A DNA stretch of 33,459 bases from an uncultured Oscillospiraceae bacterium (GCA_964542515.1 CAZIVK010000001.1:1-33459); one strand, 5' to 3'; shown: positions 3,949 to 20,247, counted from the first letter of the stretch. Translations and numbers: made by a program. The notes: generated by a model not told the origin, from the sequence alone.

Positions 3949-3979
3949 TTGTTTGAAGTGATTTAAGGAGAATAAGCAT

Positions 3980-4882: not shown

Positions 4883-4918
4883 CGAGAACCATAAGAATAC
4901 ATTTTAAGGAGAAAACAT

Positions 4919-6445
4919 ATGTCAAAACAATATTACCCCCACTTTGAACGTGTTGTTGAGACCGATTGTGGCAAGATTCGCGGTGCTGCAGGGGCAGATC
5001 CCAAGTTCACCGTATACCGCGGAGTACCTTATGCAAAGCCTCCTGTAGGTGACTTGCGCTGGCGCCGCCCTCAACCCCTGGATAAATGGGAGGGCGTGAA
5101 GGATTGCATTGAGTTTGGAAATATACCCCCTCAGTCCCTCCACGAGATTGACAGCCTTTACGGCAAAGAGTTCTTCCAGCATGAGGAAATACGCAGTGAG
5201 GACTGCCTATATCTCAATATCTGGACCCCTTCCATGGGAGGCGGAGAGAGGCTTCCAGTACTTTTCTGGGTACATGGTGGAGCACTAATGAGCGGTTACG
5301 GCAATGAACCCGAGTTTGATGGAGAAGCATTCTGTCGAGAGGGTGTAATTCTGGTTAGCTGTAACTATCGCCTTGGTATACTAGGTTTCTACGCAAACTC
5401 AGAGCTAGAATCTGAAGAGGGTTCTGCCGGTAACTATGGGCATCAGGATCAGATAGCAGCCTTCCATTGGGTTAGACGTAACATCGCCGCGTTTGGTGGA
5501 GACCCGGACAAGATAACCATTTTTGGGCAAAGCGCTGGTGCTTCTAGCGTTCAGACCATGTGTGCATCGCCCCTTACTGAAGGGGAAATTGCAGGCTGCA
5601 TCATAATGTCGTCAGCAGGTGTATCCAAACCCGGTCAAGCAGGACCTATGGGAAGAAGCTTGCCCTCTAGCGAGCTTATCCGTCAGGGAGATGAGCTGTT
5701 GGCTGAATCAGGATGCAAAAATACCGCTGAACTTCGCAAGCTGAATTATGATCAATTGAATAGTCTCCCAGGTCTGTCTATGGATTTTGAAAAAATGATA
5801 TTTCCTAAATACCGTTTTAGTACCTGTATCGATGGATATGTCCTCACAGAGGGAGGTCCTGCAAAAGCGTACAGCGGAACTTTACGTGATATTCCTTTCA
5901 TGGTTGGCAATACCAAGGGAGAAGGGAATATGATGAACCGAAACCCGGTAGAAGATGTTGAGCAGTGGAAAGAGCAGATGACCGCACAGTACGGTGAGGA
6001 GTTTGTTAAACTATTTCCGGCAGAGACTGTTGAAGAGGCAAAATCTGTCACTAGCCAGATCCATGGCATGGCTATAAGCAACCGTTCTTTCTGTGAATGT
6101 CTACTCCGTGCTGGACACAAGGCCCCCTATCTATACCAGTTTGATCATGACCTGCCCGGTAACAACGACGGCAGTTTTCATTCAAGTGAGCTGTGGTATG
6201 TCTTCGGTACCGTCTCGCGCTGCTGGAGACCCATGACCGGAGTAGATTACGACATCTCCCGTACAATGAGTAAGGCGTGGGCAAACTTCGCAAAGAACGG
6301 TAGCCCAAATGGCGTCGGAGTACCTGCTTGGGTGCCATATACCGGAGATAACAAGTGCCGTATGAATTTCTCTGATAACAGTATCTGTGAGCATATACTG
6401 TCTTCACCGATTCTGGAATACATAATAGATAAGACTATAAACTAA
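4919..6445 (+). CDS. Type-B carboxylesterase (para-nitrobenzyl esterase-like)
   Basis: AAGGAG lies 7 nt upstream. Family hallmarks are present: RGVPYAKPPVGDLRW, EDCLYLNIWTP, the oxyanion WVHGGAL and the nucleophile elbow FGQSAGASS. At 508 aa, the size is typical. Confidence 0.85.
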   Translation: MSKQYYPHFERVVETDCGKIRGAAGADPKFTVYRGVPYAKPPVGDLRWRRPQPLDKWEGVKDCIEFGNIPPQSLHEIDSLYGKEFFQHEEIRSEDCLYLNIWTPSMGGGERLPVLFWVHGGALMSGYGNEPEFDGEAFCREGVILVSCNYRLGILGFYANSELESEEGSAGNYGHQDQIAAFHWVRRNIAAFGGDPDKITIFGQSAGASSVQTMCASPLTEGEIAGCIIMSSAGVSKPGQAGPMGRSLPSSELIRQGDELLAESGCKNTAELRKLNYDQLNSLPGLSMDFEKMIFPKYRFSTCIDGYVLTEGGPAKAYSGTLRDIPFMVGNTKGEGNMMNRNPVEDVEQWKEQMTAQYGEEFVKLFPAETVEEAKSVTSQIHGMAISNRSFCECLLRAGHKAPYLYQFDHDLPGNNDGSFHSSELWYVFGTVSRCWRPMTGVDYDISRTMSKAWANFAKNGSPNGVGVPAWVPYTGDNKCRMNFSDNSICEHILSSPILEYIIDKTIN

Positions 6446-6463
6446 ATAGGGTAGTGGATAGAG

Positions 6464-6501
6464 TGCGAGGTCGGAAGAAACAGCTCCGACCTCGCATTTT
6501 T
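6464..6501 (+). terminator. Rho-independent terminator between convergent genes
   Basis: TGCGAGGTCGGA (6464-6475) and TCCGACCTCGCA (6485-6496) form a perfect 12-bp stem with a 9-nt loop, followed by TTTTT (6497-6501). Confidence 0.8.
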
Positions 6502-6513
6502 AGTTATTTATGA

Positions 6514-7659
6514 TTACCTAATATTGTTGAGGGCTGAAATGCATTCATCAATCTTGGGGTCACCCGGTGTACGCATGAAGGGGTTTCCCTCCTTGTACCC
6601 TGACCAAAGAAGTAGGTTTGATAGGGAGAGGTTCAGAGTGATGTCGTTGAGCTTGTACTGTTTAAGCTGAGGGACATATTGATAGACAATCTCCATAGCT
6701 TTTGGAGAATCAATTAGTTCACGGAGTTTAGTGGTGGTGGAGATTCCGGATGACTCCCTGGGAGGACCAAATGACATCATGTCGTTTGTGACCATACAGG
6801 TTAGCGTCTCTTCATGGGTGCGTACCATGAACGGGAGGGGTTCTCCGTCCTCAGTCTTGAGATCTTCAAAGCTAAATTCAGGCATTTTGGGGTAACCAAA
6901 GCGGTCTTTGAGCCACTCGCGGCAGCGGTCAAACCAGTCGTAAAAGCCGGGGACACGTCCGTATTTTGTAGGTTTAGATATCAGCTGGTTGGGTGCGGCA
7001 TGGGCTCCAGGGGTAAACACGTGGTATTCCACGGGGATATCTGCCTTGCTCATGGCGGAGACCATCTGAAGGGACTGTTCCATGCTTACCATAGCATCTT
7101 CATATGTATGCACTACAAAGGCGGGAGGTGTGTGTGGCCCTACATATTCCGCAGCAGATATTGTCTTGTGCACAATCGCGCCATTTTCAACAGCGGGCAT
7201 ATCAATGTTGATACACGGGTAGCAGAGGAGCATAGCGTCGGGACGGTTTTCCGTACCGGTAGCGCCAATAGCTTCCTGGATTCCAGGGAGGTTCCACATG
7301 CTACCGGCTATGGCAGCAACATGTCCTCCGGCCGAGGAGCCGGCAATGGTTATGGCGTTTGCATCAACACCCCATTCATCCGCATGGTCACGGATGAGCT
7401 TAATGGCGGCACCCGCCTCCACAAGGGGTTGAGGCCAGAGGCAGTTCAGACCAACGGAATAGTTCAGCACAAACGCGTTGTATCCAGCGGCAAAGAACGC
7501 CATTGCGAGGGGCTCCCCTTCACCCGCTGAGAGACCGATGTAAGCGCCACCCGGACAGAAGATTATAGCCGGTGCTTTACCAACTTGGCCCGGTTCCTGC
7601 AGGTAACAGACAAGATTGGCATCAGGTTTGTCCCCTATGGGAAATGTAATTTGCTTCAT
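6514..7659 (-). CDS. Alpha/beta hydrolase (HSL/acetyl-esterase-like) with a ~125-aa C-terminal extension
   Basis: AGGAGGG RBS upstream of the ATG at 7659. Oxyanion-type IIFCPGGAY, nucleophile elbow IAGSSAGGH, and later HTYEDAM and PGAHA as candidate Asp and His. Residues ~256-381 lie beyond the fold and are unassigned. Confidence 0.75.
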   Translation of the reverse strand: MKQITFPIGDKPDANLVCYLQEPGQVGKAPAIIFCPGGAYIGLSAGEGEPLAMAFFAAGYNAFVLNYSVGLNCLWPQPLVEAGAAIKLIRDHADEWGVDANAITIAGSSAGGHVAAIAGSMWNLPGIQEAIGATGTENRPDAMLLCYPCINIDMPAVENGAIVHKTISAAEYVGPHTPPAFVVHTYEDAMVSMEQSLQMVSAMSKADIPVEYHVFTPGAHAAPNQLISKPTKYGRVPGFYDWFDRCREWLKDRFGYPKMPEFSFEDLKTEDGEPLPFMVRTHEETLTCMVTNDMMSFGPPRESSGISTTTKLRELIDSPKAMEIVYQYVPQLKQYKLNDITLNLSLSNLLLWSGYKEGNPFMRTPGDPKIDECISALNNIR

Positions 7660-7745: not shown

Positions 7746-10700
7746 TCAAAATAGTGTAATTTGGTCGCTTTTGATGTAGATGTGTTCTAGTCTCTCATTT
7801 CGTGTGACACTTGGTGATGTTATAACGTCGTCTGTCTTTAAGTATGATTTATTGCCATAAAGAGAGGGGCGTACAGAGAGCTGGTAAATCAAGGCAAACT
7901 GTCCCGTTATAGAGCTTTGACTCAGGTCGGACAGGCATATCATCTGGGTATCGAACTTTTTAGATATTTCAATCATAGCTTCCAAGAGGTGGCGCGATGA
8001 AGTTTTCCCAAAAGGATTGTCAATAATAAATGTCTTTGTTCCTTGGGTGATATTGTCTCCACTCTGCTGCATGAATTTCTTGCGGGTGTAGGCAATAAGC
8101 GCCGAGATCAAAATAAAGCAGGACACAAACATCTCGCCCCCTGAGTTTTGCACAACAACATTTTCCCACTGCTTTAAGCGGCTGTTGTTAGGGTTTATGT
8201 CAACCTTATAGAGCTTAACTGAGAGAGTGTCCCTGTTGATTGTTGTGTTAAGCAGCTGGCGATCAGATAGCATAGTGGCGACTCTTTTGCGTATGCTCAA
8301 GGAACCTGTGGTGTCGTCTCCCCGCTCTGTGCGCAGTAAGACAATACACTGGTTGATGTGGTCTTTCATTCTCTCTTCGACGGAATTATCCAAGTCGTCA
8401 GGCAGCTCAATTTTCAGCATTTGTTGGGGGCTGTTCCTGCCAGGAAGCTTTACAGAGGATGATGATGAGATCTGACTCAGTTCAGAGTAGAGCTTCTTTC
8501 CTTGGAGGACAGCGTGTTGTGTAACATGAGCTTTGTCCTTTTCAATGGTTTCCAAAGCATTTTCAATTATCTTTAGGTAGTCGATAAGGCGATCGTTGGC
8601 GGCAGTAGTGCGCTCATATACGTGATAACATTCACTGAAATCTAAATTATGGTTTTCAAGAGAGGCGACCTCAAGAAAAGGATCGATGATGGTGTGCGAT
8701 CCACTAAATTCACCCTTAATATTTTGATAGCTCCCATTAGTTATATTGAAGGTCCTTGTGCACAGGGCTCTTGTCTCTTTTAGCTCTTTGCTAAGTTCAT
8801 TGATGTTCAGATCTAGCCAGTTAGGTGTTGGCGTTATATCACTTGCTGTAACGGCATCAACATCCACACTGCGACGAATATCGTTGCGATGTTCGTTATA
8901 TGCCGCAATGGCACGATTATTCTGATTCAGTTGATTTTGAATATCATCCCGTGCTTTGCTTATCTTGTCCTTGCGGAATGGGTAATCACCCTTAATCTCA
9001 TCAATTGGCAGAGGGTCAGTGAAACCAGCTGATTCTAGGTCCTTTTTCCTTTCTCTATAGATACTGAGAGCGGCGTTCATTATGGCGTTGGCTTCTATGC
9101 TTAGTTTGTTAGCATCATCGTACTCTTTCTGAGCAGCTATGGCCTTTGTGGTGAAAAGGTTGTAGAGTTCTTCACTATATGTCACAGAACGGTATTCGCT
9201 TTCACTAAGGTCAGAAAAGTCCCTCTTCAAAATTCTTTCTGCGCTTGAACGCTCCTTTGCAGCGCTGTTTATCCTCTCGTTGAGGAGAACTCTCTTGTCG
9301 CTGACCTTATTCAAGTAATCTTGGTAACGCTCCTTAAGAACATCCAAGCTACCCGTGGTTAGTGTGCCCTCCTCACGGAGAGGCAGTTTGTCTAGTTCAA
9401 GACGGTATTTGCCTACAGTTTCTTGGAGGTCTCTCCTTTTAGCGGTACTTATAGATAAACTGGAACGTAACTCCTCTAGTAAGCGCTCTGCATTTTGTTG
9501 GTCCTCCGTTAAATGCTCAAGCTCCTTGTCGTTTTGAACCTTGGAGTTGAGAGTCTCCATATACAGCTCATTTTGAGCCAAATACTCATCAAAACGGGCT
9601 ATATTGGAGATACAGACCTCATGTTCCTGTTCCGAACGATGCATATGTTCCAAAATGGAGACGTTTTCTGCTTGAAGCTCCTTTTGATCGTGCTGGAGCT
9701 TCTTCAAAGTATCCTCAAGGTGTGCACTTGATGCTTCAAGAGTTGCTTCCTCTTCAGTTAAAAGTTCCAATGTTCCTTTTTCATAGGGGAATTGCAAAAT
9801 TATGGTACTGTTATGGTTGAGCTCTTGCAGCTCTAAGTTACAGTGTTTGTCCTCTCTGACGGTAGCTTCTATCTCCTCCTGTAAGGTCTCCTGGTAGCTA
9901 TCCTTTGTGTCTGCGCCAAAGCTTCTAAGGTTGTAATAGCAGACGAACTGTACAGGGTCTAGGAAGATGGTCTTATTTACCGGAGCTAAGCTGCTTTCTA
10001 GATCCTCAAAGGCAAATATAGGGCATGCGCGGCCTATTTCATCATGCGCGGGCAATTTATTTATCCGAACAATATCCTTCTTGGCGACTAAGAAACAGTA
10101 TGGTAGAAGTGGATTACGCGATATTAGCTGGTCCTGAACGGATTTTTCATAGTTCTTTAGGTAGCTCTCTCCGGTGGTAAATTCAATGCCTTCCTTTTGT
10201 AGGATGTTGCCAAAGGAGGGATCGGTATGGACGCTGCCATTTCTGAGGGCCTTCAAAAACTCCCGCTGCTTGCTGAGGGAGACTACAATTGCCGATTGAC
10301 GCTCCTCAAGAGTCCTCCTCTGTTCATTGAGGGTAATTGTGTTTATCTCCTTATCAAAGCGGTTTTCAAAAGGAATCTTGCATCCCCTTAGTGCAAGTTT
10401 AAGTGTCTCCTCATCCTTCTTGTACCTTTCAATTTCATGGGTCTTGAGGTCGAGCTGTATGCGGGTATCCCGGAGAGAGTCCTCATATCTCGACTGCTCC
10501 TGTGAATTGAGGACAATACGATCATTGTTAGCCTCATATTTACGGGTTAATTCTGCTTTCCTATCTAGTAGCTGCGTCTTGAGCGCTTGCAAATGATTGG
10601 TAAATGCTTCAACTTCACTGGGATCAAGGATTCCGGTTAGCATCCTTCCCACAGAAAAACTAAGATCCCGAAACGTGTTCTCCTCACGTTTTAGGAAGGA

Positions 10701-12107
10701 CTCTATCTTTTCCTCGAGGCGTCCCGACAAGCTTTTGCATGCGTCGCTTCTGCTCCGCGCATTTAAGAGTATTTTGCTAGTACTGTCCTTTTGCTCATGG
10801 GCTTGCGCAATAGTTTCATCGGTTTTTTTCAGTTCAGTGTCACGTTCCTGAATTTCTTCATTGTAACGTAAGCGTAGGGTATATTCTAGATTGATGGTAT
10901 TCTGTGTGGTATCAGATGATTCAAGGCGTCCAAGTTCCTCCTTATACGAATCAATCTTGTCGGTGGTCTCCATAATAATGCTGTGTTGCTCAGCTGCTCC
11001 TTGTATCATTTTTGCTCTACTTGCCGATTGTAAAGAAACTACTTTTTCCTCTAGAACATTTGAGGCATGTTCGGCTTTTTCCGAGGCATCCTCCCACGCC
11101 CTCTGTTTGTCGTAGAGCCTCTCTGAGAGCTCCTCGTATTGAATGTGCAGGAGCTGCGCTTGGAGATCTATATCTGAGTTTTTAAGCTGGTTTTTTTGAT
11201 CTTCAAGGGCAGAAATTTTTTGAGTAAAAAAGCTGTAAAGGCCAACAAGGATCTGTTCAATCCTATCGGAGGTGGAGAGATTGCCACAAAGTTCCTCCAG
11301 CTGGTCGATATAGGTGCCAATACGGGTGCGGAAGTTGTCCAATAGCTCCTTTTGCCGTACATTGTCCTCCTGCTCCAGGATGGAATCCATTAGTGCCACA
11401 AACATCTCAAATAGGTTGTCATTTCCCGATATGCTATCCGAAACGGTCTTAAGAATCCACTTATCTATTAGGCTATCCGATGTCCTACAACTTGCAAAGA
11501 GCTCGTCAACACCGCCTTCTTTTTCATTAATCTTCTGAATGATTCTCCACTCGTCCTGTAGGATACCATGTTCAGCTAGCTCCTTTTTGTAGCGGTCCAT
11601 GTCATCTCTAACAAAGTAGTTAATTTTGGATGAGCTATCCCTGGCCTGCCGAATTTCCTTCATGGCGGAGTCGTAGTTGAGGTAGATAACGCCGTTGTTT
11701 AGATGGTCAATAAAAGGGATGTTGGCGATGTCATATCTGTTTGCTTCCGTATAGTGATTGGTAAAAGTGAAATATTTTACACGGGCGGAGCTCTCTAAAC
11801 TGGATCCTGAGACGCACATTACTATACCTGTAAGGAAATAGGTTGGCTGAAGGGTGTCAAGTTTCCACTCTATAAGAATGAACGTTGGGGAGCTGGGGGA
11901 GCTGAGGTAATCCTCAACCTTTCTTCCGTGGATTCTAGCGGAGGGAAGTACGGGTTGTAGCATCATTTGGACCAGAACACTTTTGCCACTGCCATTTGCC
12001 AGATTTAGAAGAATATTCTCTCCTCCGAAGGAGTCGTATATCTCATCCGTTATATGTTTGTTGTCATAGGACACATTTGCAACGCGGATTCTATTAATTG
12101 TGGGCAC
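7746..12107 (-). CDS. SMC/MukB-like ABC ATPase, 1453 aa (candidate JetC/MksB-like subunit)
   Basis: GTG start at 12107, 2 nt after the upstream stop and preceded by a GGGGGG/AAGG purine run. N-terminal head with Walker A LANGSGKS (11979-11999) followed by VLVQMMLQPVLP, as in MukB/JetC heads. Hundreds of residues are Glu/Lys/Leu/Gln-rich and arm-like. A Pro/Cys/Phe-containing non-coiled middle segment lies around aa 620-745. The C-terminal head carries the signature NSGGE (8133-8144) and the Walker-B-like TFIIDNPFG (about 8004-8030). Confidence 0.7.
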   Translation of the reverse strand: MPTINRIRVANVSYDNKHITDEIYDSFGGENILLNLANGSGKSVLVQMMLQPVLPSARIHGRKVEDYLSSPSSPTFILIEWKLDTLQPTYFLTGIVMCVSGSSLESSARVKYFTFTNHYTEANRYDIANIPFIDHLNNGVIYLNYDSAMKEIRQARDSSSKINYFVRDDMDRYKKELAEHGILQDEWRIIQKINEKEGGVDELFASCRTSDSLIDKWILKTVSDSISGNDNLFEMFVALMDSILEQEDNVRQKELLDNFRTRIGTYIDQLEELCGNLSTSDRIEQILVGLYSFFTQKISALEDQKNQLKNSDIDLQAQLLHIQYEELSERLYDKQRAWEDASEKAEHASNVLEEKVVSLQSASRAKMIQGAAEQHSIIMETTDKIDSYKEELGRLESSDTTQNTINLEYTLRLRYNEEIQERDTELKKTDETIAQAHEQKDSTSKILLNARSRSDACKSLSGRLEEKIESFLKREENTFRDLSFSVGRMLTGILDPSEVEAFTNHLQALKTQLLDRKAELTRKYEANNDRIVLNSQEQSRYEDSLRDTRIQLDLKTHEIERYKKDEETLKLALRGCKIPFENRFDKEINTITLNEQRRTLEERQSAIVVSLSKQREFLKALRNGSVHTDPSFGNILQKEGIEFTTGESYLKNYEKSVQDQLISRNPLLPYCFLVAKKDIVRINKLPAHDEIGRACPIFAFEDLESSLAPVNKTIFLDPVQFVCYYNLRSFGADTKDSYQETLQEEIEATVREDKHCNLELQELNHNSTIILQFPYEKGTLELLTEEEATLEASSAHLEDTLKKLQHDQKELQAENVSILEHMHRSEQEHEVCISNIARFDEYLAQNELYMETLNSKVQNDKELEHLTEDQQNAERLLEELRSSLSISTAKRRDLQETVGKYRLELDKLPLREEGTLTTGSLDVLKERYQDYLNKVSDKRVLLNERINSAAKERSSAERILKRDFSDLSESEYRSVTYSEELYNLFTTKAIAAQKEYDDANKLSIEANAIMNAALSIYRERKKDLESAGFTDPLPIDEIKGDYPFRKDKISKARDDIQNQLNQNNRAIAAYNEHRNDIRRSVDVDAVTASDITPTPNWLDLNINELSKELKETRALCTRTFNITNGSYQNIKGEFSGSHTIIDPFLEVASLENHNLDFSECYHVYERTTAANDRLIDYLKIIENALETIEKDKAHVTQHAVLQGKKLYSELSQISSSSSVKLPGRNSPQQMLKIELPDDLDNSVEERMKDHINQCIVLLRTERGDDTTGSLSIRKRVATMLSDRQLLNTTINRDTLSVKLYKVDINPNNSRLKQWENVVVQNSGGEMFVSCFILISALIAYTRKKFMQQSGDNITQGTKTFIIDNPFGKTSSRHLLEAMIEISKKFDTQMICLSDLSQSSITGQFALIYQLSVRPSLYGNKSYLKTDDVITSPSVTRNERLEHIYIKSDQITLF

Positions 12108-12109
12108 CC

Positions 12110-12793
12110 TTAGTCCCCCCTTCCGGTTCTAAAAATACTGTTGATATCTTCTATGCGGCGCTCGTCAAGGTAGTAGTTTATCATCAGGTCATCCAGGCGC
12201 TGAGTCGTACGGATTTCACGCCTGTCGTCGTAAAAGTCAGTAAGTTTGTGGCGCTCCAGTAGGCGGCATGCGCGCATTACGGCTTCATGTCTGGTTGTGC
12301 GCTTTGTGTCGTCGTAGATGGGGCGTGACGCCCAGATTTCTGCTATGTTCTTGAAGTTGATGGAGTATTTGGACTCCAGTGTCTCCTGCATCTCATTGGA
12401 GGCATTGCTAAAATGGGTGTCCAGCTCACTTACGATATCCTTGATTTGCAGAAATGTGCGCTGCTTTGGATTGTTATTCTTTCCTCCGTAAAAGAGGTAG
12501 AGGATTGTCATAACAATGTAGCACTGTAAAAAAGCTTCCACCAGACGGGCACTGGATGCAACACTTTCACGGATGTCGCGCAATGAAAAGCTTAGAAGGT
12601 CGTTGTCTATATCCGGAACAAGATATACAGTATGGGGAATATCCACAAGGGTAAAGCCCAACTCCTCCCCAAAGGACTCAAGCATATCCCGCACTTCGCT
12701 GTCTTTGTAGTCTGAATATAGGTAGGGGTCGTCCTTGTCGTGCAGCTTCCCGTCCTCAATCAGTTTTCTGTAGATTTTAAGCGCTCGTCTCAT
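12110..12793 (-). CDS. Hypothetical 227-aa protein; candidate JetB/MksE-like (KITE, winged-helix) subunit
   Basis: GAGGTGA RBS 6 nt upstream of the ATG at 12793. The assignment rests on size, position directly upstream of the SMC gene, and a segment (MLESFGEELGFTLVDIPHTVYLVP) that resembles the pattern I associate with DUF4194/MksE proteins. There is no catalytic motif. Confidence 0.45.
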   Translation of the reverse strand: MRRALKIYRKLIEDGKLHDKDDPYLYSDYKDSEVRDMLESFGEELGFTLVDIPHTVYLVPDIDNDLLSFSLRDIRESVASSARLVEAFLQCYIVMTILYLFYGGKNNNPKQRTFLQIKDIVSELDTHFSNASNEMQETLESKYSINFKNIAEIWASRPIYDDTKRTTRHEAVMRACRLLERHKLTDFYDDRREIRTTQRLDDLMINYYLDERRIEDINSIFRTGRGD

Positions 12794-14348
12794 GTTTACT
12801 CACCTCAAAGGATAGATTGTTTATAGATATCAAGTCGTAGCTAAAGATTCTGTCGGATTTTTCCACTGATACGGTAAGCACTGAATAAAAGCTTGGATCC
12901 CTATCCTCGATACAGCTGAGGCAATAGGACAGGTCAAACTCACCGTTACAGTCCATTGTACGTATGCCCTCCTGTAGCCAACGGCTTATATCGATAACCT
13001 TGTATTCATAAAGTTTTAGCATTGTCAGATAGAGCATCCGGTTTTCCAGTAAATCATTAAAACTGGGTGTTGTACGTAGGTGTTCAAAAAAATCGTCAAA
13101 GAAAAAGCCATCCTTGTTTTGGGACGCAAAGTTAAGAAGGGAGTTAATAATACGGACATAAGCACTGTTTTTGCGCTCAATAGACTGCCTAAACATCTCC
13201 TCCTCGGCCATCTCGTCGTTTTCCAGAAGGAAGTTCTCCTCCTCCTCTTTTATCTTGGACTGGGTGTCGTAGATGAGGTTGAGGTTTAGAAACCGGTTCA
13301 TTGCAGGTAACAAGAGAGGATTAAGTAATTTGTTTACAATGCTATTCAGGTCATTTTCTGACATTATTTCAACTTGTGCCATAGGGCTAAGTATTTTTTC
13401 TTCAAAGTTATAGGTCTTTATTCTGTTATAGGCTATAGAGTCGGAAAGTACTTCCAGGTAGAGTTTCTTTAAGGATTTACACTCTGTGAGGAGTGTCCTT
13501 TGGTAATCCAGGGCGGTCTCTACGTTTGCAGTAATTGTAGCAATTTCAAGTTTTGCGGTTTTAAGTTTATCGTCAAGATCCCCAGAGCGCCGCTCCTCCC
13601 CGTTTAGGCGTTCTGCGGCTAGGGCAATCATCTCACTGATCTCTTTCATAGTGTCGTATTCCTGTTCAAGCAATGAGTTAATTTCTCGAATTAGGGTATC
13701 GTACTCTTCACCTGAAATAGTTGAGACACTGTTGCGCAGTTGAGCAATAAACTGCATGAGTTCGTTGCGTTTATTGATAAGCATCCGGATAAGTTCTTTG
13801 CTCTGAGATACCGCTTTTTTGTAGTTCTTCTTACTGATGAGCATTTTAAGCTTGATTTCTTCTATCTCAAAGCCCAGCTCATCGTCCACTTCCTTAGTGC
13901 GGAACATGAAATTATAGCCCTGTCTGGTGAGCTCGTAGACAATCTTGTGATCCACATTAATCTTGTCCGAGATGAGTCGGATTGGGACATCCACAAGACC
14001 CCTGCCATAGTGCATAACGGAGTATAGGCGTCTGTCCCCTTTGTTTTGCAAAATATCCTTAACTAAGTAACGGGTTAAGGTTTCAGCCTCTTCAATGGAG
14101 TAGTTCTTTTTGTACTCCGGGAGTATATCACGGACAAATGCCGATATTGACTCAATTGTGCAGTCCTGATTTTCTGTCAGTGTGGTCTCCATAATAAAGT
14201 TGAGAATTGAGAGGATGATGTTGTCCAGCTCATACTTTTCAAAGGCTCTCTCAATGTCCTCTGAGGTGTTCCGTCGGTTTACTATGGAGTCCACTACTGC
14301 GGCCAGCTCCATCCTTTTTTCAAAGCCTGATAGGAAATCTGGTATCAT
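12777..14348 (-). CDS. Hypothetical 523-aa protein; candidate kleisin-like (JetA/MksF-like) subunit
   Basis: The ATG at 14348 overlaps the upstream TGA (ATGA), with AAGGGGAGGG upstream. The protein looks mostly helical, with a central charged, coiled stretch (about aa 170-300). Its size and position match JetA. No motif was recognised, so the assignment is by context only. Confidence 0.4.
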   Translation of the reverse strand: MIPDFLSGFEKRMELAAVVDSIVNRRNTSEDIERAFEKYELDNIILSILNFIMETTLTENQDCTIESISAFVRDILPEYKKNYSIEEAETLTRYLVKDILQNKGDRRLYSVMHYGRGLVDVPIRLISDKINVDHKIVYELTRQGYNFMFRTKEVDDELGFEIEEIKLKMLISKKNYKKAVSQSKELIRMLINKRNELMQFIAQLRNSVSTISGEEYDTLIREINSLLEQEYDTMKEISEMIALAAERLNGEERRSGDLDDKLKTAKLEIATITANVETALDYQRTLLTECKSLKKLYLEVLSDSIAYNRIKTYNFEEKILSPMAQVEIMSENDLNSIVNKLLNPLLLPAMNRFLNLNLIYDTQSKIKEEEENFLLENDEMAEEEMFRQSIERKNSAYVRIINSLLNFASQNKDGFFFDDFFEHLRTTPSFNDLLENRMLYLTMLKLYEYKVIDISRWLQEGIRTMDCNGEFDLSYCLSCIEDRDPSFYSVLTVSVEKSDRIFSYDLISINNLSFEVSKHETSA

Positions 14349-15406
14349 GGTCTAAAACCCTCCCCTTTGACTCTTGTAAGAAGCTTGTCCAACCTCTGAT
14401 AGTGCATAATTTCCTGGGGTATGTACTTACTTTGTGTAAGAATACTGCAGATATCCTCCTGAATTTTGGGACTAAAGCAGCAGAGAAAGTCTGCCATATC
14501 GGAGGGGACAGCCTGGTTGTGCTTTACTTTACCAAGGGTTGAGGATCCGTGCGCCAGCATCTCCTCATAGAGTTCATGAAATAGGGCTATATTCAGGGTA
14601 GGGTTTGCTTTGCGCACGCGTAAGAACAGCTCTATTCCCATATAGTCCAGGTCCCCAAAGTACAGGTAGTGGACGTCATCACCATAGTTTAGGATTCCAT
14701 AATCTGTAAGGGCGTCTTTCCTGTTTATTTTGTTGCCCTCACCATAGAGGATAGCATCTATCTGTCTATCAAAAAGGGTACAACGATAGCGTCGCAGGGA
14801 TAAGATCCGCCGCAACGTAAACCAGGTATCCTTATTTTCAATAATTAGCACGTTCATTTTCTGATTCTGATTATCCACATAATCAAAGAAAGGTTCAGGT
14901 GTTAGATAGTAGTTTAGCCGCCCCCTCAGCCCGTTGAAACTGAGTACTGCTTTGGCGAGGGAGGTGTCTAGCATTTTTTCATCAGTCCATATCGAGTAAG
15001 ATCTCTCGTTTTTTGACATGGGAGCTTCCAGTAGACAGCTGTCCTTAATTAGGTAGTTGCAGAGAGGCCAGATAACTTGCCTATGTTTTTTATATAGGTT
15101 GATGTTTTCCAAATAACCGGAGATATTCATGCTGGGGTGTAACGTCTTGATTTCCTCTACGTAGGGCTGGTTGTCCTCCGATTCACGGAGAATCCTGTAC
15201 TTTAGGCTAAGAGCAGGGACTTTCCCGTTGGTATCCTGCTTCCTGCCTGCCGGTTTTATTGTCCCATCTAGGATTAGCTCGTTTATTGTCTGAAAAAAAA
15301 GGGCGTAGTCAACAGACCCCACAAGCTTTTCCAACTCGTTTAGGTCAATAAAAACCTTTTGAAAATTTAACAGTTGACTCTTAAGCTGTCCTATTAAAAT
15401 TCCCAT
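14345..15406 (-). CDS. JetD/MksG-like protein with a C-terminal Toprim-type domain (DUF2220-like), 353 aa
   Basis: The C-terminal half carries NVLIIENKDTWF (E190, codon 14837-14839), then ILYGEGNKI and YLYFGDLDYMGIELF (D252/D254, about 14645-14653). That is the Toprim E...DxD arrangement seen in JetD and topo VI-A. The upstream segment NERSYSIWTDEKML is reminiscent of JetD-family N-domains; this is recollection, not a search. Confidence 0.6.
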   Translation of the reverse strand: MGILIGQLKSQLLNFQKVFIDLNELEKLVGSVDYALFFQTINELILDGTIKPAGRKQDTNGKVPALSLKYRILRESEDNQPYVEEIKTLHPSMNISGYLENINLYKKHRQVIWPLCNYLIKDSCLLEAPMSKNERSYSIWTDEKMLDTSLAKAVLSFNGLRGRLNYYLTPEPFFDYVDNQNQKMNVLIIENKDTWFTLRRILSLRRYRCTLFDRQIDAILYGEGNKINRKDALTDYGILNYGDDVHYLYFGDLDYMGIELFLRVRKANPTLNIALFHELYEEMLAHGSSTLGKVKHNQAVPSDMADFLCCFSPKIQEDICSILTQSKYIPQEIMHYQRLDKLLTRVKGEGFRP

Positions 15407-15414
15407 AATATTAA

Positions 15415-16452
15415 TCAGCCCACTTGCGGAATGCGCGTGTCTTCATAAATAGACTGGACGTCTATATTGTTGTAAGCTTCTGTTTTCTCAACAGATATCT
15501 TAGCTTTGTACTCATTAAGAATGTCGTCAAAATCTTCAACGCAGTAGAGCTGCTTGATGCTTTCAAGGTTTTCATCCAGGTAGGTTTTATCGAGTGGTAG
15601 GCGGTTTACAATGCAGAGGGTTCCTTGGATTTCGAGGATATCGCTGGATTCGTTTTCCCCCAAAGCAGCAGTCGCATTGTAGTAGGCATCGGGCATCTCC
15701 CCTTGGGTGAAGGTGATGGTGTTGTTGTTGATACCGGTGTCCTGGTTATATTCCGTCATAAGTGTTTCGAAGTCCCCGCCGTCCTCTATGCGTGAGAGGA
15801 TGTCCTCCATGAGGACTCTGTATTCGGCAATTGTGGCGTCATCCAGGGGTGTTCCTTCCTCATCAAATAGATACACCATAATGTGGCGTGTGCGCAGATA
15901 ATTAGAGTAAAAGCGCTCGGCCACCGCGGTGTATTCCGGCTCCCTCTCCCCGCCTTCAGCGTATAAGCTCTGGTATATCTTAAAGTAGGCCTCAGGGCCT
16001 GTAAGAATGTATGTGTAAAGTTCCCTGTCAATGCCGGCAAGAGCCAGCTGTTTTGCAAAGGCCTCCTCACCGCCAGTCTGCTCAATGGTCTCCTCCACGG
16101 TCTCTTCAATGAAGGCAAGTTCCTCCTCCGTCAGAGTAAGTCCAAGTTCCTCACCATATTTTTGTACGCTTCTGTAGAGGACTATGCTGTCGGTGGCTTG
16201 GTCTTTAAAAAAATCATCGGGTTTGGCGTTGTCGATGGGCTCTTCCCAGTCAACTATCTTGCCCCCGTAATACTCAAATGCGTCCAACATGGATACAAGC
16301 TGGTATCTGAACTCCATTAGACCTATGTTTTCACCGTCCACAATCAGAACAGCAGCCGGAGATGGATCAGGGGGCGCTGTTTCACAGGATGTGAATGATA
16401 GTAATAAAACGGTTATCAAGAGCGATGCCAAGAGTGGGCGGATAAATCTCAA
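15415..16452 (-). CDS. PrsA/SurA-like peptidyl-prolyl isomerase lipoprotein (parvulin-type)
   Basis: A likely TTG start at 16452 is preceded by AGGAGG; the track ORF to 16572 is over-extended. The signal peptide (M)RFIRPLLASLLITVLLLSFTSC ends in a lipobox Cys. The parvulin-like region runs RTRHIMVYLFDEEG...GGDFETLMTEYNQD...GEMPDAYYNA...GTLCIVNRL. Confidence 0.7.
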   Translation of the reverse strand: MRFIRPLLASLLITVLLLSFTSCETAPPDPSPAAVLIVDGENIGLMEFRYQLVSMLDAFEYYGGKIVDWEEPIDNAKPDDFFKDQATDSIVLYRSVQKYGEELGLTLTEEELAFIEETVEETIEQTGGEEAFAKQLALAGIDRELYTYILTGPEAYFKIYQSLYAEGGEREPEYTAVAERFYSNYLRTRHIMVYLFDEEGTPLDDATIAEYRVLMEDILSRIEDGGDFETLMTEYNQDTGINNNTITFTQGEMPDAYYNATAALGENESSDILEIQGTLCIVNRLPLDKTYLDENLESIKQLYCVEDFDDILNEYKAKISVEKTEAYNNIDVQSIYEDTRIPQVG

Positions 16453-16485
16453 TATGAACACTCCTCCTAGGTAGTTTACATAACG

Positions 16486-16494
16486 ATTATAGCA
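16486..16494 (-). promoter_or_regulatory. Extended -10 promoter element upstream of the PrsA-like gene (may also drive the four-gene operon)
   Basis: The minus strand reads TGCTATAAT (TG-n-TATAAT) about 34 nt upstream of the TTG start, inside the 116-nt gap after the DUF1624 gene. Confidence 0.45.
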
Positions 16495-16568
16495 CTGTAC
16501 CGCTGCAAAGTATAGCGAATATTGCGAATTAAACGCCGGACCCGGTCCCCTGTTTAAAAGCTGCACAA

Positions 16569-17282
16569 TCAAAGGAGTCCTTTGATTATGAGCGTTATTA
16601 CGTAGAGAACGGGTTGGTGCAGGATGTAAATAATAAGAGTGTTGCGGCCGATTGCGGCAAAAACCGGAACCTTAAACGTGTAGAAACTTTCTGGGAGCCT
16701 GCGCTCCACAATGTAGCTTCCAGCCCAGGTACCCGCAAGGTAAATAAAGATCCATGGAAGGATTGGAAAATAGTCCGCTGATGCAAAACCCTCCGGCCTG
16801 AAGCCGAGCCACCAGAGAAAATTTACATTGTAGTAGCGCGAGGTGAAGACCATGGCGCATAAGTAGAGCACAATGTAGATTACTATGAGTGCGGGGCGGG
16901 ACACCTTGTCCAACAGTGGCCTTAGGAGTAAGTAGATGATTGGTGCCAAGCCCAGGAAGTGAATAATGCCGAACCACACAGGCATAGCCATGAAGAAGGT
17001 AACCACGGTGATGCCGACCCCAAAGGCCAGCAGTAGCAGCCCCCGCTTGAGGTTGTTCCGGGAAAACCTACAGCTGATGCCCGAGACAAATATAAATATA
17101 CCTGCAAAAAGTGGCTGCAGGATAGCGAGTACCGGATTAAAAATAAGACCGGGAGGTGCACCTACAAATGCAACTAGGTCAAAACCAAAGTGGTATAGGA
17201 CCATGAGGAAAATTGAGATCCCTCTGAGGCCGTCAATTATTTGAATGCGCCCTTTGGAGTCCTTAATGATGAGCGGCCTCAT
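16569..17282 (-). CDS. DUF1624 / heparan-alpha-glucosaminide N-acetyltransferase-like integral membrane protein
   Basis: 237 aa with multiple hydrophobic helices. The N-terminal RIQIIDGLRGISIFLMVLYH matches the conserved R-x-x-x-x-D-x-x-RG start of this acyltransferase-like family. The ATG overlaps the ychF stop (ATGA). Confidence 0.65.
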   Translation of the reverse strand: MRPLIIKDSKGRIQIIDGLRGISIFLMVLYHFGFDLVAFVGAPPGLIFNPVLAILQPLFAGIFIFVSGISCRFSRNNLKRGLLLLAFGVGITVVTFFMAMPVWFGIIHFLGLAPIIYLLLRPLLDKVSRPALIVIYIVLYLCAMVFTSRYYNVNFLWWLGFRPEGFASADYFPILPWIFIYLAGTWAGSYIVERRLPESFYTFKVPVFAAIGRNTLIIYILHQPVLYVITLIIKGLL

Positions 17283-18373
17283 ACGTTGAAGCGGAATAGG
17301 ATTACGTCGCCGTCTTTGACGGTGTATTCCTTGCCTTCAGAGCGGTATATGCCCTTTTCCTTTGCTTTTGCTATGGAGCCGGTGCTCACGAGGTCATCAT
17401 ATGATACAACCTCCGCACGGATAAATCCCCGCTCAAAGTCCGAGTGGATTTTTCCGGCTGCTTGGGGTGCAAGAAGACCACGTTTTATGGTCCATGCACG
17501 TACCTCCGGCTCACCCGCAGTGAGGTATGAAATAAGCCCAAGTAGATGATAACTCTTTTGAATGAGGCGGTTGAGGCCGGACTCTGTAAGACCAAGGTCC
17601 TCAAGGAACATCAGCTTATCTTCGCCTTCAAGGGAGGATATCTCCTCCTCCAGCTTTGCGCATATGGGGAGGGCCTCAGCGCCTTCGGCTTCAGCGTGCT
17701 TAAGTACTGTGTTGTAGTAGTCATTTGTGTCCTTGTTACGAAATCCGGTTTCATCCATGTTGGCGGCGTAGAGGACCGGTTTTTGTGTCAGGAGCTCAAA
17801 GGTGGGCATGAGCTCCTCCTCAGCGGGGTTGTCCGGCGCAAAGGACCGAGCGGTGTGTCCTGCGTCCAAGTGGACCCGCAGACGCTCCATGAGCTCTGCC
17901 TGAGCTACAAGGGACTTGTCCCCTTTTGACGCCTTCTTAGCCCTGTCTATCTGACGAGTTAGGGCCTCCAGGTCTGAAAGGATGAGTTCTGTGTCGATGA
18001 TTTCAATGTCACGCAGAGGGTCGGTTGAACCCTCTACGTGAGTAACATTTGCGTCATCAAAACAGCGCACTACGTGTACAACGGCGTCCACAGACCGGAT
18101 GTGGCTTAGAAATTTGTTTCCGAGCCCCTCACCTTTTGAGGCCCCCTTTACGAGCCCGGCTATGTCAACGAACTCAACAATGGCGGGTGTCACCTTTTTG
18201 GGGTTATACATTTTGGCCAGAGCGTCCAGACGGGAGTCCGGAACGGCCACAACGCCGATGTTGGGGTCTATTGTGCAGAAGGGGTAGTTTGCAGATTCCG
18301 CACCTGCATTTGTAATAGCGTTAAATAGTGTGGACTTTCCTACATTGGGCAGTCCTACAATGCCTAGTTTCAT
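17279..18373 (-). CDS. ychF: Ribosome-binding (redox-regulated) ATPase YchF
   Basis: 364 aa. [22 protein letters not shown]1 motif, a central coiled insertion and a C-terminal TGS-like end ([12 protein letters not shown]). AAGGAGG RBS upstream. Confidence 0.92.
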
Positions 18374-18401
18374 GAGGGGGGCCTCCTTATAATTGGCTTG
18401 G

Positions 18402-20057: not shown

Positions 20058-20218
20058 ATGTTTACAGATCTCCTTAAATTTGGTGCACAGTAGAATACCG
20101 CTATGCAGAAGCACAGCGTTCATATGTGGACCGTTAAAATATTATATAAATGTAGAGCCATAGCTATACATGTAAATACATAAAAAGTTAAATGCAATAT
20201 TTAACAATAGTTAATACT

Positions 20219-20247
20219 ATTATAACACCATAAGTCCCTTATGTATA
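20219..20247 (-). promoter_or_regulatory. Candidate sigma-A promoter for rnj
   Basis: The minus strand reads TATACA, a 17-nt spacer, then TATAAT with TG at -15/-14. This implies a ~150-nt AT-rich leader before the rnj ATG. Confidence 0.35.

What the first reader, a model, noticed from the sequence alone, without database searches (positions are those of the whole stretch)
7746..15406. Wadjet-like SMC/Toprim four-gene operon with permuted gene order (nuclease first): candidate divergent or undescribed SMC-based defence system
Four minus-strand genes are translationally coupled by an ATGA overlap at 14345-14348, a 17-nt overlap at 12777-12793 and a 2-nt gap at 12108-12109. In order they encode four proteins. 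(i) A 353-aa protein with Toprim-type E...DxD motifs (LIIENKD, FGDLDYMG), like JetD/MksG. (ii) A 523-aa helical protein. (iii) A 227-aa protein. (iv) A 1453-aa ABC/SMC ATPase with Walker A LANGSGKS, long charged arms, a central non-coiled segment and an SGGE signature. This parts list (kleisin-sized, KITE-sized, SMC, Toprim nuclease) matches Wadjet/MksBEFG, the SMC complex that restricts small circular plasmids. Canonical Wadjet loci, as I know them, run jetA-jetB-jetC-jetD with the nuclease last and a JetC of roughly 1100 aa. Here the order is D-A-B-C, the SMC is MukB-sized, and the two middle proteins carry nothing I can recognise by eye. It is therefore either a very divergent Wadjet subtype or a separate SMC-plus-Toprim system.
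Basis: partly seen in the sequence, partly recalled or inferred. Interest (0 to 1): 0.85.

Follow-up and report, generated by a model that had tools for sequence, protein, structure and literature searches.

The report
Ordinary type III Wadjet plasmid-defence operon
These four genes are a standard type III Wadjet system, a known bacterial SMC-plus-nuclease machine that destroys small circular plasmids, and its nuclease-first gene order and very large SMC protein are normal for that type, not a novelty.

Summary
Four tightly coupled minus-strand genes of 353, 523, 227 and 1453 aa sit exactly where stated, with the stated overlaps and motifs.

The "permuted or undescribed system" reading fails. 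All four proteins match PADLOC's Wadjet type III models end to end: JetD3 3e-87, JetA3 1e-155, JetB3 3e-75, JetC3 3e-136. Among 80 related loci from other genomes, the order D-A-B-C is found in 72. The other 8 show partial sets in the same order; most are cut at a contig end. Three annotated megaplasmids have the same order. Median sizes are 349, 536, 234 and 1470 aa. So nuclease-first order and a roughly 1450-aa SMC are the type III norm.

AlphaFold models plus Foldseek place the 227-aa protein with JetB/MukE (KITE fold) and the 523-aa protein with MukF (kleisin fold). The flanking genes are housekeeping genes and are not shared with any related locus, so this is an accessory, horizontally moving system.

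One point is worth keeping. JetC here has Walker B D-N instead of D-E, as do all 150 family representatives I examined. I found no mention of this in the literature I could search.

Interest in the finding as stated is low.

The parts
14345..15406 (-). jetD (353 aa): type III Wadjet Toprim nuclease
   Evidence: PADLOC JetD3 PDLC00592 scores 3.2e-87 and covers residues 8-343 of the protein against 4-342 of 346 model positions. Pfam JetD_C scores 21.7 bits, just under its cut-off of 22. The only PDB sequence hit is E. coli JetD(E248A), 8q72_M, E 0.005, aligned across the DxD motif.
14837..14839 (-). JetD Toprim glutamate E190 (in LIIENKD)
   Evidence: Invariant in 24 aligned homologues. Codon position verified.
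14645..14653 (-). JetD Toprim DxD (D252-L-D254, in FGDLDYMG)
   Evidence: Invariant. Aligns to GDMD of E. coli JetD 8q72_M. Verified.
12777..14348 (-). jetA (523 aa): MukF-like kleisin
   Evidence: PADLOC JetA3 PDLC00562 scores 1.2e-155 and covers residues 4-505. The AF2 model has pLDDT 79.8. The top nine Foldseek PDB hits are all MukF (9gm7_C 5.8e-5, 9gm9_D, 7nz2_C1, 3euh_B, 1t98), each with probability 1.00. There is no Pfam hit and no PDB sequence hit.
12110..12793 (-). jetB (227 aa): KITE subunit (DUF6063)
   Evidence: PADLOC JetB3 PDLC00576 scores 3e-75, and Pfam DUF6063 scores 3.2e-36. The AF2 model has pLDDT 81.4 and pTM 0.77. The top Foldseek hits are JetB of P. aeruginosa JetABC (8dk1_E, 2.3e-4), JetB of E. 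coli (8as8_C), and MukE (3rpu, 7nyw_E).
7746..12107 (-). jetC (1453 aa, GTG start): type III Wadjet SMC ATPase
   Evidence: PADLOC JetC3 PDLC00583 scores 3.3e-136 and covers residues 1-1428 against 1-1448 of 1471 model positions. A profile of the N-terminal head hits Rad50 N-terminal ATPase (1ii8_A, 0.007) and an ABC-F Walker A region. The C-terminal heads of 25 of 29 family members hit PF13558 SbcC_Walker_B, best E 1.7e-5.
11979..12002 (-). JetC Walker A LANGSGKS (residues 36-43)
   Evidence: N38, G39, G41, K42 and S43 are each conserved in at least 36 of 37 family members. Verified.
9768..10250 (-). JetC hinge region (about residues 620-780)
   Evidence: This is a Pro/Gly-rich stretch between two Pro/Gly-poor, charge-rich arms. 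It contains a conserved patch: T645, G646, E647, N665, P666, P669, P696. The boundaries are approximate and inferred.
8133..8147 (-). JetC ABC signature motif NSGGE (residues 1321-1325)
   Evidence: N1321, S1322, G1323 and G1324 are each conserved in at least 36 of 37 family members. The motif aligns to the LSGGQ signature of a condensin Smc head, 6qj0_A.
8007..8033 (-). JetC Walker B TFIIDNPFG (D1363-N1364): Asn occupies the place of the canonical catalytic Glu
   Evidence: DNPFG is conserved in at least 36 of 37 loci proteins. DNPF[GAS] (DNPYG in one) is present in 150 of 150 cluster representatives at 50% identity. It is also present in B. mycoides p481, Pontibacillus and C. perfringens pJFP838A. 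The assignment as Walker B is inferred from its position about 40 residues after the signature motif, following a hydrophobic strand, and inside the PF13558 match.

Best explanation
The locus is an intact, canonical type III Wadjet (JetDABC) anti-plasmid system, carried as an accessory operon in the chromosome of an unnamed, poorly sampled bacterium that looks like a member of Bacillota.

By analogy with the characterised type I and II systems, the likely mechanism is as follows:
1. [quoted passage not shown]
2. The complex loads on DNA and scans it in an ATP-dependent manner.
3. Only on small circular DNA can the scan be completed, which switches the complex into a cleavage state.
4. The JetD Toprim dimer (E190, D252, D254) then cuts the DNA, so plasmids are linearised and lost.

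What is shown here: the identity of the four proteins, their folds, their motifs and the operon layout. What is inferred from relatives: complex assembly, DNA scanning, the size limit and cleavage.

One step is uncertain for the whole type. JetC3 lacks the canonical Walker B glutamate, so its ATPase chemistry may not be that of type I.
For: Family assignment:
- all four proteins hit only type III PADLOC models at full length (JetD3 3e-87, JetA3 1e-155, JetB3 3e-75, JetC3 3e-136). Type I JetD models reach only about 1e-4 over a partial stretch.
- of 80 genome loci encoding relatives, 72 have D-A-B-C on one strand. The other 8 show partial sets in the same order, most of them cut at a contig end. 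Median sizes are 349, 536, 234 and 1470 aa, against 353, 523, 227 and 1453 here.
- RefSeq megaplasmids of C. perfringens, B. mycoides and Pontibacillus carry the same layout. PGAP names the genes 'Wadjet anti-phage system protein JetD domain-containing protein', hypothetical, 'DUF6063 family protein' and hypothetical.

Folds and motifs:
- the JetB model is closest to JetB and MukE.
- the JetA model is closest to MukF.
- the Toprim E and DxD residues are invariant and align to E. coli JetD.

Accessory status:
- none of seven tested flanking proteins has a homologue in any related locus.
- the flanks are core genes (rnj, ychF, gdpP, rplI, dnaB, tilS, hpt, ftsH).
- GC content is 0.438 in the operon and 0.478 in the flanks.

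Literature:
- Three Wadjet types are classified by sequence and operon organisation (PMC10586767; 10.1101/2025.03.10.642339).
- The B. thuringiensis JetABCD operon (named the type III representative in 10.1101/2025.03.10.642339), expressed in B. subtilis, blocks transformation by circular plasmids (10.1101/2022.10.04.510915).
- Type I and II systems cleave circular DNA but not linear DNA, and need ATP to do so (10.1101/2022.10.04.510915; 10.1101/2025.03.10.642339).
Against: - No activity was or could be tested for this locus.
- No type III complex has been solved or reconstituted according to the papers I could read. One states that types II and III remain 'largely uncharacterized' (10.1101/2025.03.10.642339).
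- JetC has D-N in place of the Walker B D-E. It also has SS where ABC ATPases usually have the D-loop, and mostly S/T-D where the H-loop histidine would be. In E. coli type I, the E1022Q change abolishes ATP hydrolysis and cleavage (10.1101/2022.10.04.510915). The type I ATPase cycle therefore cannot simply be transferred to type III.
- jetD has only a weak ribosome-binding site and starts 8 nt after the stop of an unrelated PPIase-like gene. No consensus promoter lies between them, so how the operon is transcribed is unknown.
- I could not read the published type III reference operon itself, because the gene order is shown only in figures. The statement that D-A-B-C is canonical therefore rests on my own survey.
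- The one residue number given for the B. thuringiensis JetD Toprim glutamate is E298 (10.1101/2022.10.04.510915). It does not match E190 here, nor about residue 214 in B. mycoides p481. I could not resolve this.
Confidence: 0.92

Rival explanations
1. This is the reader's reading: a very divergent Wadjet subtype, or a separate and undescribed SMC-plus-Toprim defence system, marked out by a permuted gene order and a MukB-sized SMC.
For: - Pfam and NCBIfam recognise almost nothing. JetA and JetC have no family, and JetD_C falls just below its cut-off.
- Profiles of JetA and JetB find no solved structure by sequence.
- The closest JetD homologue is only 49% identical.
Against: - The type III-specific PADLOC models match all four proteins end to end.
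- The order and the protein sizes are the same in 72 of 80 related loci and in three annotated megaplasmids.
- The family is large. The C-terminal head of JetC has 706 cluster representatives at 50% identity with E<=1e-3.
- The literature already describes type III as differing in operon organisation and arm length (PMC10586767; PMC12647877).
Confidence: 0.03
2. It is a housekeeping MksBEF/MukBEF-like condensin for chromosome organisation that happens to have an associated Toprim protein.
For: - JetA folds like MukF and JetB like MukE.
- The operon sits among core genes (ychF, rnj, dnaB) with no integrase or transposase nearby.
Against: - The locus context is not conserved. None of the seven tested flanking genes recurs near any of the 80 related loci.
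- Relatives are scattered patchily over Clostridia, Bacilli, Spirochaetia, Muiribacteriota and a Methanosphaera bin, and occur on megaplasmids.
- A Toprim nuclease with intact catalytic residues is always the first gene.
- GC content is lower than in the flanks.
- No Pfam MukB, MukE or MukF match was found.
Confidence: 0.03
3. It is a type III Wadjet, but it does not work as a processive ATP-hydrolysing loop extruder. Because JetC lacks the Walker B glutamate, ATP would serve mainly as a binding or engagement switch, as has been suggested for Lamassu LmuB. Alternatively, hydrolysis may use a relocated catalytic residue. Either way, target sensing could differ from type I.
For: - D-N at Walker B is found in all 150 representatives and in all loci and plasmid homologues.
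- The D-loop and H-loop positions are also non-canonical.
- Natural Walker B E-to-Q substitution is reported for LmuB, with the suggestion of low or no hydrolysis (PMC10586767).
- E1022Q inactivates type I JetC (10.1101/2022.10.04.510915).
Against: - The Walker B assignment rests on motif order and a weak PF13558 match, not on a structure.
- Walker A, the signature motif and the Walker B Asp are strictly conserved, which argues for a working nucleotide site.
- Authors working on types I and II expect type III to follow the same extrusion-cleavage principle (10.1101/2025.03.10.642339).
- Other invariant acidic residues could supply the catalytic base, for example E186, E197 and E1315.
Confidence: 0.25
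4. It is a decaying, non-functional remnant of a Wadjet operon.
For: jetD has a weak ribosome-binding site and no recognisable promoter of its own.
Against: - All four ORFs are full length relative to the family medians.
- They match the HMMs end to end.
- They retain the family-conserved motif residues checked here (JetD E190, D252, D254; JetC Walker A, signature and DNPFG).
- Gene junctions keep translational coupling and strong ribosome-binding sites for jetA, jetB and jetC.
Confidence: 0.04

Closest known systems
Wadjet type III (JetDABC). The reference system is from B. thuringiensis (10.1101/2025.03.10.642339), which I recall as strain YBT-020. PADLOC family wadjet_III: JetA3, JetB3, JetC3, JetD3.
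   Same: - All four proteins match the type III HMMs at full length.
- The order D-A-B-C, the tight gene coupling and the protein sizes are the same as in 72 of 80 related loci and in the B. mycoides, C. perfringens and Pontibacillus megaplasmids.
- It shares the DUF6063 JetB and the DNPF Walker B.
   Different: - Only the sequence differs. The nearest homologues are 49% (JetD), 64% (JetB) and 53% (JetA) identical.
- It is chromosomal, lies between ychF and esterase genes, and apparently reads on from an unrelated PPIase-like gene.
- I could not align it directly to the B. thuringiensis reference proteins.
Wadjet type I (JetABCD / MksBEFG / EptABCD): E. coli GF4-3, P. aeruginosa PA14, B. cereus Q1
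   Same: - It has the same four roles: SMC, kleisin, KITE and Toprim nuclease.
- The JetB model's best structural matches are type I JetB, 8dk1_E and 8as8_C.
- The JetD DxD region aligns to E. coli JetD 8q72_M.
- The presumed function is the same: restriction of small circular plasmids.
   Different: - Type I has the order A-B-C-D, per the jetABCD naming used for type I systems in the papers read.
- No DUF3375, DUF4194 or DUF3322 Pfam hits were found.
- Type I PADLOC JetD models reach only about 1e-4, and no JetA1, JetB1 or JetC1 match was found for the corresponding proteins.
- The arms are longer, and type III is reported to lack a hinge channel (PMC12647877).
- Walker B is D-N here, whereas type I has a D-E whose E1022Q mutant is dead (10.1101/2022.10.04.510915).
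Wadjet type II (Neobacillus vireti nvJET-II; PDB 9QE0, 9QE1)
   Same: - It is an SMC-based plasmid-cleaving system with a Toprim JetD and long coiled coils. Types II and III are both reported to lack a hinge channel (PMC12647877).
- N. vireti JetB appears among the weak structural matches (9qe0_D, E 1.2).
   Different: [quoted passage not shown] JetB here is 227 aa with two winged-helix domains.
- No NCBIfam or Pfam type II families were hit.
MukBEF / MksBEF condensins
   Same: - The JetA model's top nine structural matches are MukF.
- The JetB model matches MukE.
- JetC is MukB-sized.
   Different: - MukBEF has no nuclease gene and is a conserved housekeeping locus.
- Here a Toprim nuclease leads the operon, and the locus is not syntenic with its relatives.
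- There is no sequence-level match to the Muk families.
Lamassu LmuB (SMC/Rad50-like defence ATPase)
   Same: It is a defence-associated SMC-like ATPase whose Walker B glutamate is naturally replaced, by Gln in LmuB (PMC10586767) and by Asn in JetC3.
   Different: - LmuB is about 650 aa with short coiled coils, and it has no kleisin, KITE or Toprim partner.
- No PADLOC Lamassu model was hit.

Membership tests
Wadjet type III | Four co-directional, tightly linked genes in the order jetD-jetA-jetB-jetC | tested here: met
   ORFs and junctions were confirmed. The same order is found in 72 of 80 related loci and in three annotated megaplasmids.
Wadjet type III | JetD3: a roughly 350-aa protein with a Toprim (DUF2220/JetD_C) domain and catalytic E...DxD residues | tested here: met
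   PDLC00592 scores 3.2e-87 at full length. E190, D252 and D254 are invariant. The DxD region aligns to E. coli JetD 8q72_M. Pfam JetD_C scores 21.7 bits against a cut-off of 22.
Wadjet type III | JetA3: a roughly 530-aa kleisin homologous to MukF | tested here: met
   PDLC00562 scores 1.2e-155. The AF2 model's top nine PDB matches are MukF, each with probability 1.00 and E down to 5.8e-5. Global TM-scores are low (0.2-0.4), as expected for a flexible multi-domain protein.
Wadjet type III | JetB3: a roughly 230-aa KITE protein (DUF6063) with two winged-helix domains | tested here: met
   PDLC00576 scores 3e-75 and DUF6063 scores 3.2e-36. The AF2 model (pLDDT 81) is closest to JetB (8dk1_E, 8as8_C) and MukE (3rpu, 7nyw_E). 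MAGE and ScpB appear further down the list.
Wadjet type III | JetC3: a roughly 1450-1490-aa SMC with N- and C-terminal ABC head halves, long arms and a hinge | tested here: met
   PDLC00583 scores 3.3e-136 over residues 1-1428. Walker A and the signature motif are conserved. The arm and hinge composition fits. The N-terminal head matches Rad50 N-terminal ATPase, and the C-terminal head matches PF13558.
Wadjet type III | [quoted passage not shown] | not testable with these tools
   No multimer prediction or biochemistry was available. JetC exceeds the 1200-aa limit of the structure tool.
Wadjet (any type) | Restricts small circular plasmids in vivo, dependent on the JetC ATPase and the JetD Toprim residues | not testable with these tools
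   This is shown only for relatives. The B. thuringiensis type III system was tested in B. subtilis, and type I and II systems in vitro (10.1101/2022.10.04.510915; 10.1101/2025.03.10.642339).
Canonical SMC/ABC ATPase | Walker B hhhhD-E with a catalytic glutamate | tested here: not met
   The motif is TFIID-N-PFG. Asn is found in all 150 family representatives and in all other homologues checked. This is a property of the whole type III family, not of this locus alone.
Wadjet type I | JetA with DUF3375, JetB with DUF4194, JetD with DUF3322 plus DUF2220, in the order A-B-C-D | tested here: not met
   No Pfam hit to DUF3375, DUF4194 or DUF3322 was found. Only partial JetD1 PADLOC hits at about 1e-4 were seen. 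The order is D-A-B-C.
Wadjet type II | A single tandem-KITE JetB with four winged-helix domains, as found in the N. vireti type II complex | tested here: not met
   JetB is 227 aa with two winged-helix domains. The tandem-KITE feature is taken from 10.1101/2025.03.10.642339. I also recall, but did not check, that type II proteins belong to the TIGR02677-TIGR02680 / DUF2397-DUF2399 families. No such Pfam or NCBIfam family was hit at the thresholds used.
MukBEF/MksBEF housekeeping condensin | A three-gene SMC-kleisin-KITE set with no nuclease, at a conserved chromosomal position | tested here: not met
   A Toprim nuclease gene is part of the operon in all relatives. The flanking genes are not conserved. 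The family also occurs on megaplasmids.
SbcC/Rad50 orphan | An ABC ATPase with a zinc hook and an Mre11/SbcD partner, without kleisin or KITE | tested here: not met
   The kleisin and KITE folds were confirmed next to the gene. No SbcD or Mre11 family appears among the neighbours. A zinc-hook motif was not specifically searched for.

The most novel reading that the evidence does not exclude
The operon itself is ordinary. However, it exposes a family-wide oddity that I could not find discussed in the searchable literature.

Every type III Wadjet SMC examined has Asn in place of the Walker B catalytic Glu (DNPF). This covers all 150 cluster representatives at 50% identity, 37 JetC sequences (the window's plus 36 from the genome loci), and three megaplasmids including a B. 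cereus-group one. The D-loop and H-loop positions are also non-canonical, while Walker A, the signature motif and the Walker B Asp are strictly kept.

If this means type III JetC hydrolyses ATP by a relocated catalytic residue, or hardly at all, then type III Wadjet would recognise plasmids by a mechanism that differs from the hydrolysis-driven loop extrusion established for type I.
Probability: 0.2. Interest if true: 0.6.

Novelty: new member of a known kind. Interest (0 to 1): 0.15.

Why it matters
As stated, the finding matters little. It is one more instance of a defence system described in 2018 and recognised by standard defence-annotation models.

There are two practical consequences:
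- An organism carrying it is likely to resist small circular plasmids. That is relevant if this lineage is ever cultured and engineered.
- The case shows that nuclease-first order and a roughly 1450-aa SMC should not be flagged as novel by a reader who knows only type I.

The side observation matters more. Type III remains biochemically and structurally uncharacterised. Its SMC head lacks the glutamate whose mutation kills type I, so a direct ATPase and loop-extrusion test of a type III complex would be informative for how the SMC mechanism varies.

Tried and rejected
1. JetD-JetA fusion proteins. My first ORF-extension script suggested 885-939-aa fusions in six loci. Reading the junctions showed one stop codon in each. 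This was an artefact of my script, and I rejected it.

2. The PPIase-like gene that ends 8 nt upstream of jetD as a fifth component. It has no homologue in any of the 80 related loci, so I rejected it.

3. Sequence-level links of JetA and JetB to solved structures. Profile searches against PDB sequences found nothing meaningful, so fold comparison was needed instead.

4. Residue-level proof that N1364 occupies the catalytic Glu position.
   - The PDB profile search of the C-terminal head aligned only the signature motif.
   - hhalign against the window's own ABC transporter was uninformative.
   - The N-terminal head search gave only Walker A and Rad50 N-terminal matches, plus spurious hits to designed Kelch-repeat proteins.
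   - The idea that invariant E197 replaces the Q-loop Gln therefore stays pure speculation.

5. Organism identification. YchF, DnaB, L9 and JetD are unnamed singleton clusters at 90% identity. The contig recurs only in Logan assemblies of SRR11702756 and SRR11702757.

6. Reading the original type III description (PMC6387622). It is not held in the library. The papers I could read show the type III operon only in figures.

7. Rfam and tRNA scans found nothing in or next to the operon.

8. The promoter and terminator scan found no more sites than shuffled sequence for promoters, and nothing placed convincingly for the operon.

Full report
**Observation**

On the minus strand lie:
- jetD, 14345-15406, 353 aa
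- jetA, 12777-14348, 523 aa
- jetB, 12110-12793, 227 aa
- jetC, 7746-12107, 1453 aa, GTG start

The three junctions are as described: an ATGA overlap, a 17-nt overlap and a 2-nt gap. G-rich Shine-Dalgarno runs sit in front of jetA, jetB and jetC.
- LIIENKD (E190) and FGDLDYMG (D252, D254) in the first protein. All three residues are invariant in 24 homologues.
- LANGSGKS (residues 36-43) and NSGGE (1321-1325) in the last protein.

The large protein has Pro/Gly-poor, charge-rich arms around a Pro/Gly-rich centre at about residues 620-780.

**What it is**

Against PADLOC-DB, each protein matches only Wadjet type III models, at essentially full length:
- JetD3 PDLC00592, 3.2e-87
- JetA3 PDLC00562, 1.2e-155
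- JetB3 PDLC00576, 3e-75
- JetC3 PDLC00583, 3.3e-136, covering residues 1-1428 against 1-1448 of 1471 model positions

Type I JetD models reach only about 1e-4 over part of the Toprim domain. General libraries see little. Pfam gives DUF6063 for JetB (3e-36) and JetD_C just below its cut-off (21.7 against 22 bits). It gives nothing for JetA or JetC, and NCBIfam adds nothing useful. That explains why the two middle proteins looked anonymous to a reader working by eye.

**Is the gene order or size unusual?**

No. I used an alignment of JetD homologues to fetch 80 loci from species-representative genomes. I then mapped the four window proteins onto them with tblastn.
- 72 loci have D-A-B-C on one strand.
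- The other 8 show partial sets in the same order. Most are contigs cut off inside the operon. One (L058) lacks detectable JetA and JetB between JetD and a short JetC match.
- Median ORF sizes are 349, 536, 234 and 1470 aa, against 353, 523, 227 and 1453 here.

Three annotated RefSeq megaplasmids show the same layout: C. perfringens pJFP838A, B. mycoides p481 and a Pontibacillus 898-kb plasmid. PGAP names the genes 'Wadjet anti-phage system protein JetD domain-containing protein', hypothetical, 'DUF6063 family protein' and hypothetical.

A phmmer scan of 1.84 billion cluster representatives with the JetC C-terminal head finds 706 proteins at E<=1e-3. The full-length ones are 1430-1502 aa.

The literature agrees:
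- The three Wadjet types were defined by sequence similarity and operon organisation (PMC10586767; 10.1101/2025.03.10.642339).
- Wadjet-III SMCs lack a hinge channel and tend to have longer coiled coils (PMC12647877).

I could not read the original 2018 description. The type III operon is drawn only in figures, so the statement that D-A-B-C is canonical rests on my survey.

**Fold-level test of the kleisin and KITE assignment**

Profiles of JetA and JetB find no solved structure by sequence. I therefore predicted both with 42-sequence alignments.
- The JetB model (pLDDT 81.4, pTM 0.77) is closest to JetB of P. aeruginosa JetABC (8dk1_E, E 2.3e-4), JetB of E. coli (8as8_C) and MukE (3rpu, 7nyw_E). 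MAGE, ScpB and N. vireti JetB appear lower down.
- The JetA model (pLDDT 79.8) has MukF as its top nine matches (9gm7_C 5.8e-5, 9gm9_D, 7nz2_C1, 3euh, 1t98), each with probability 1.00. Global TM-scores are low, as expected for flexible multi-domain proteins. I give more weight to the consistency of the hit lists than to the scores.

For JetD, the only PDB sequence hit is E. coli JetD(E248A), aligned across GDLD and GDMD. For JetC, the N-terminal head matches Rad50 N-terminal ATPase and an ABC-F Walker A region. Twenty-five of 29 family C-terminal heads match PF13558 SbcC_Walker_B.

**Context**

The window is a chromosomal core segment. It carries RNase J, YchF, GdpP, L9, DnaB, TilS, Hpt and FtsH on one side, and esterase and carbohydrate genes on the other. 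There is no integrase or transposase.
- None of the seven tested flanking proteins has a homologue in any of the 80 related loci.
- Relatives are scattered over Clostridia, Bacilli, Spirochaetia, Muiribacteriota and a Methanosphaera bin, and occur on megaplasmids.
- The operon's GC content is 0.438 against 0.478 in the flanks.

This argues for an accessory, horizontally acquired system and not a housekeeping condensin.

YchF, DnaB, L9 and JetD are singleton clusters at 90% identity.

jetD starts 8 nt after the stop of an unrelated PPIase-like gene, with no consensus promoter or terminator between them. The operon may therefore be read through from upstream.

**Mechanism**

[quoted passage not shown] Completion of the scan on a small circle would license the JetD Toprim dimer to cut. 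These steps have been shown for relatives:
- for type I and type II in vitro
- for the B. thuringiensis type III operon in vivo in B. subtilis, where it blocks transformation by circular plasmids

The sources are 10.1101/2022.10.04.510915 and 10.1101/2025.03.10.642339. For this locus these steps are inferred.

**A caveat that concerns the whole type**

The JetC Walker B motif is TFIID-N-PFG. The canonical catalytic glutamate is an asparagine.
- This holds in at least 36 of 37 JetC sequences, the window's and 36 from the genome loci.
- It holds in 150 of 150 cluster representatives.
- It holds in the C. perfringens, Pontibacillus and B. mycoides plasmids.
- The D-loop position reads SS, and the H-loop position is mostly S/T-D.

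In type I, E1022Q abolishes hydrolysis and cleavage (10.1101/2022.10.04.510915). Lamassu LmuB naturally carries an E-to-Q change, with low hydrolysis suggested (PMC10586767).

I found no paper mentioning this feature for type III. However, the searchable library lacks most subscription papers. The Walker B assignment is also by motif order and a weak Pfam match, not by structure. I record it as the most novel reading, not as a finding about this locus.

**Verdict**

This is a canonical, apparently intact type III Wadjet operon, and a new member of a known kind. Its novelty argument came from knowing only the type I layout, and its own first refutation criterion is met. Interest in the finding as stated is low.

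Noticed in passing
window 8007-8033 (JetC residues 1359-1367); also L083, L084, L085 and P0361-P0510: The Walker B motif of type III JetC is DNPF[GAS], with Asn in place of the catalytic Glu, in every family member examined (150 of 150 representatives). The D-loop and H-loop positions are also non-canonical. I found no mention of this in the searchable literature.
   Followed up: partly
window 15415-16572 (-): A PrsA/SurA-like peptidyl-prolyl isomerase gene (Rotamase_3 plus SurA_N_2; 345-385 aa depending on the start codon) ends 8 nt before the jetD ATG, with no promoter or terminator consensus between them. It has no homologue near any of the 80 related Wadjet loci. It is therefore a neighbour and not a component, but jetDABC may be co-transcribed with it.
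   Followed up: yes
window 16569-20123 (-) and 20786-28461 (+): This is a core-gene neighbourhood: rnj, ychF and an HGSNAT-type acyltransferase lie on the minus strand, and gdpP-rplI-dnaB-tilS-hpt-ftsH lie on the plus strand. YchF, DnaB and L9 are unnamed singleton clusters at 90% identity among about 15 billion proteins, so the source organism belongs to a very poorly sampled lineage.
   Followed up: partly
window 20124-20790: There is a low-GC stretch (0.384 for 20001-21000) between the divergently oriented rnj-side genes and gdpP. It includes a 127-aa ORF (20300-20683, minus strand) with no Pfam match. No Rfam family was hit.
   Followed up: no
window 15-7659: This is a cluster of likely deacetylase and esterase genes. 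It includes a solute-binding protein, a creatininase-like protein, a putative esterase, YdjC, a carboxylesterase (COesterase, 8e-99) and a BD-FAE / lp_1002-like arylesterase. The last of these lies immediately downstream of jetC and has its own promoter-like site (CTAACA-18-TATAAT at 7724-7695).
   Followed up: no
window 28625-33245 (+); tRNA at 33329-33402: An ABC-2 transporter (ATPase plus permease) is followed by ABC_transp_aux/DUF7088 and DUF4340 proteins, and then by tRNA-Gly(CCC).
   Followed up: no
L086 7525-9696 (Collinsella aerofaciens, NZ_OY725717.1): A stand-alone 723-aa hypothetical protein has a C-terminal part that resembles the JetD Toprim domain (25% identity over JetD residues 131-334). 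No jetA, jetB or jetC lies next to it.
   Followed up: no
L043 (Methanosphaera sp. MAG, JAJQHG010000075.1): A complete type III Wadjet operon sits in an archaeal bin. Its JetA and JetB are 52% identical to the window's. The same JetB cluster is also labelled Clostridiales (P0149). This is either inter-domain transfer or a binning error.
   Followed up: no
literature versus window JetD E190; L084 8863-9918: 10.1101/2022.10.04.510915 gives E298A as the B. thuringiensis JetD equivalent of E. coli E248A. The Toprim Glu is residue 190 here and about residue 214 in the 351-aa B. mycoides p481 JetD.
   Followed up: partly
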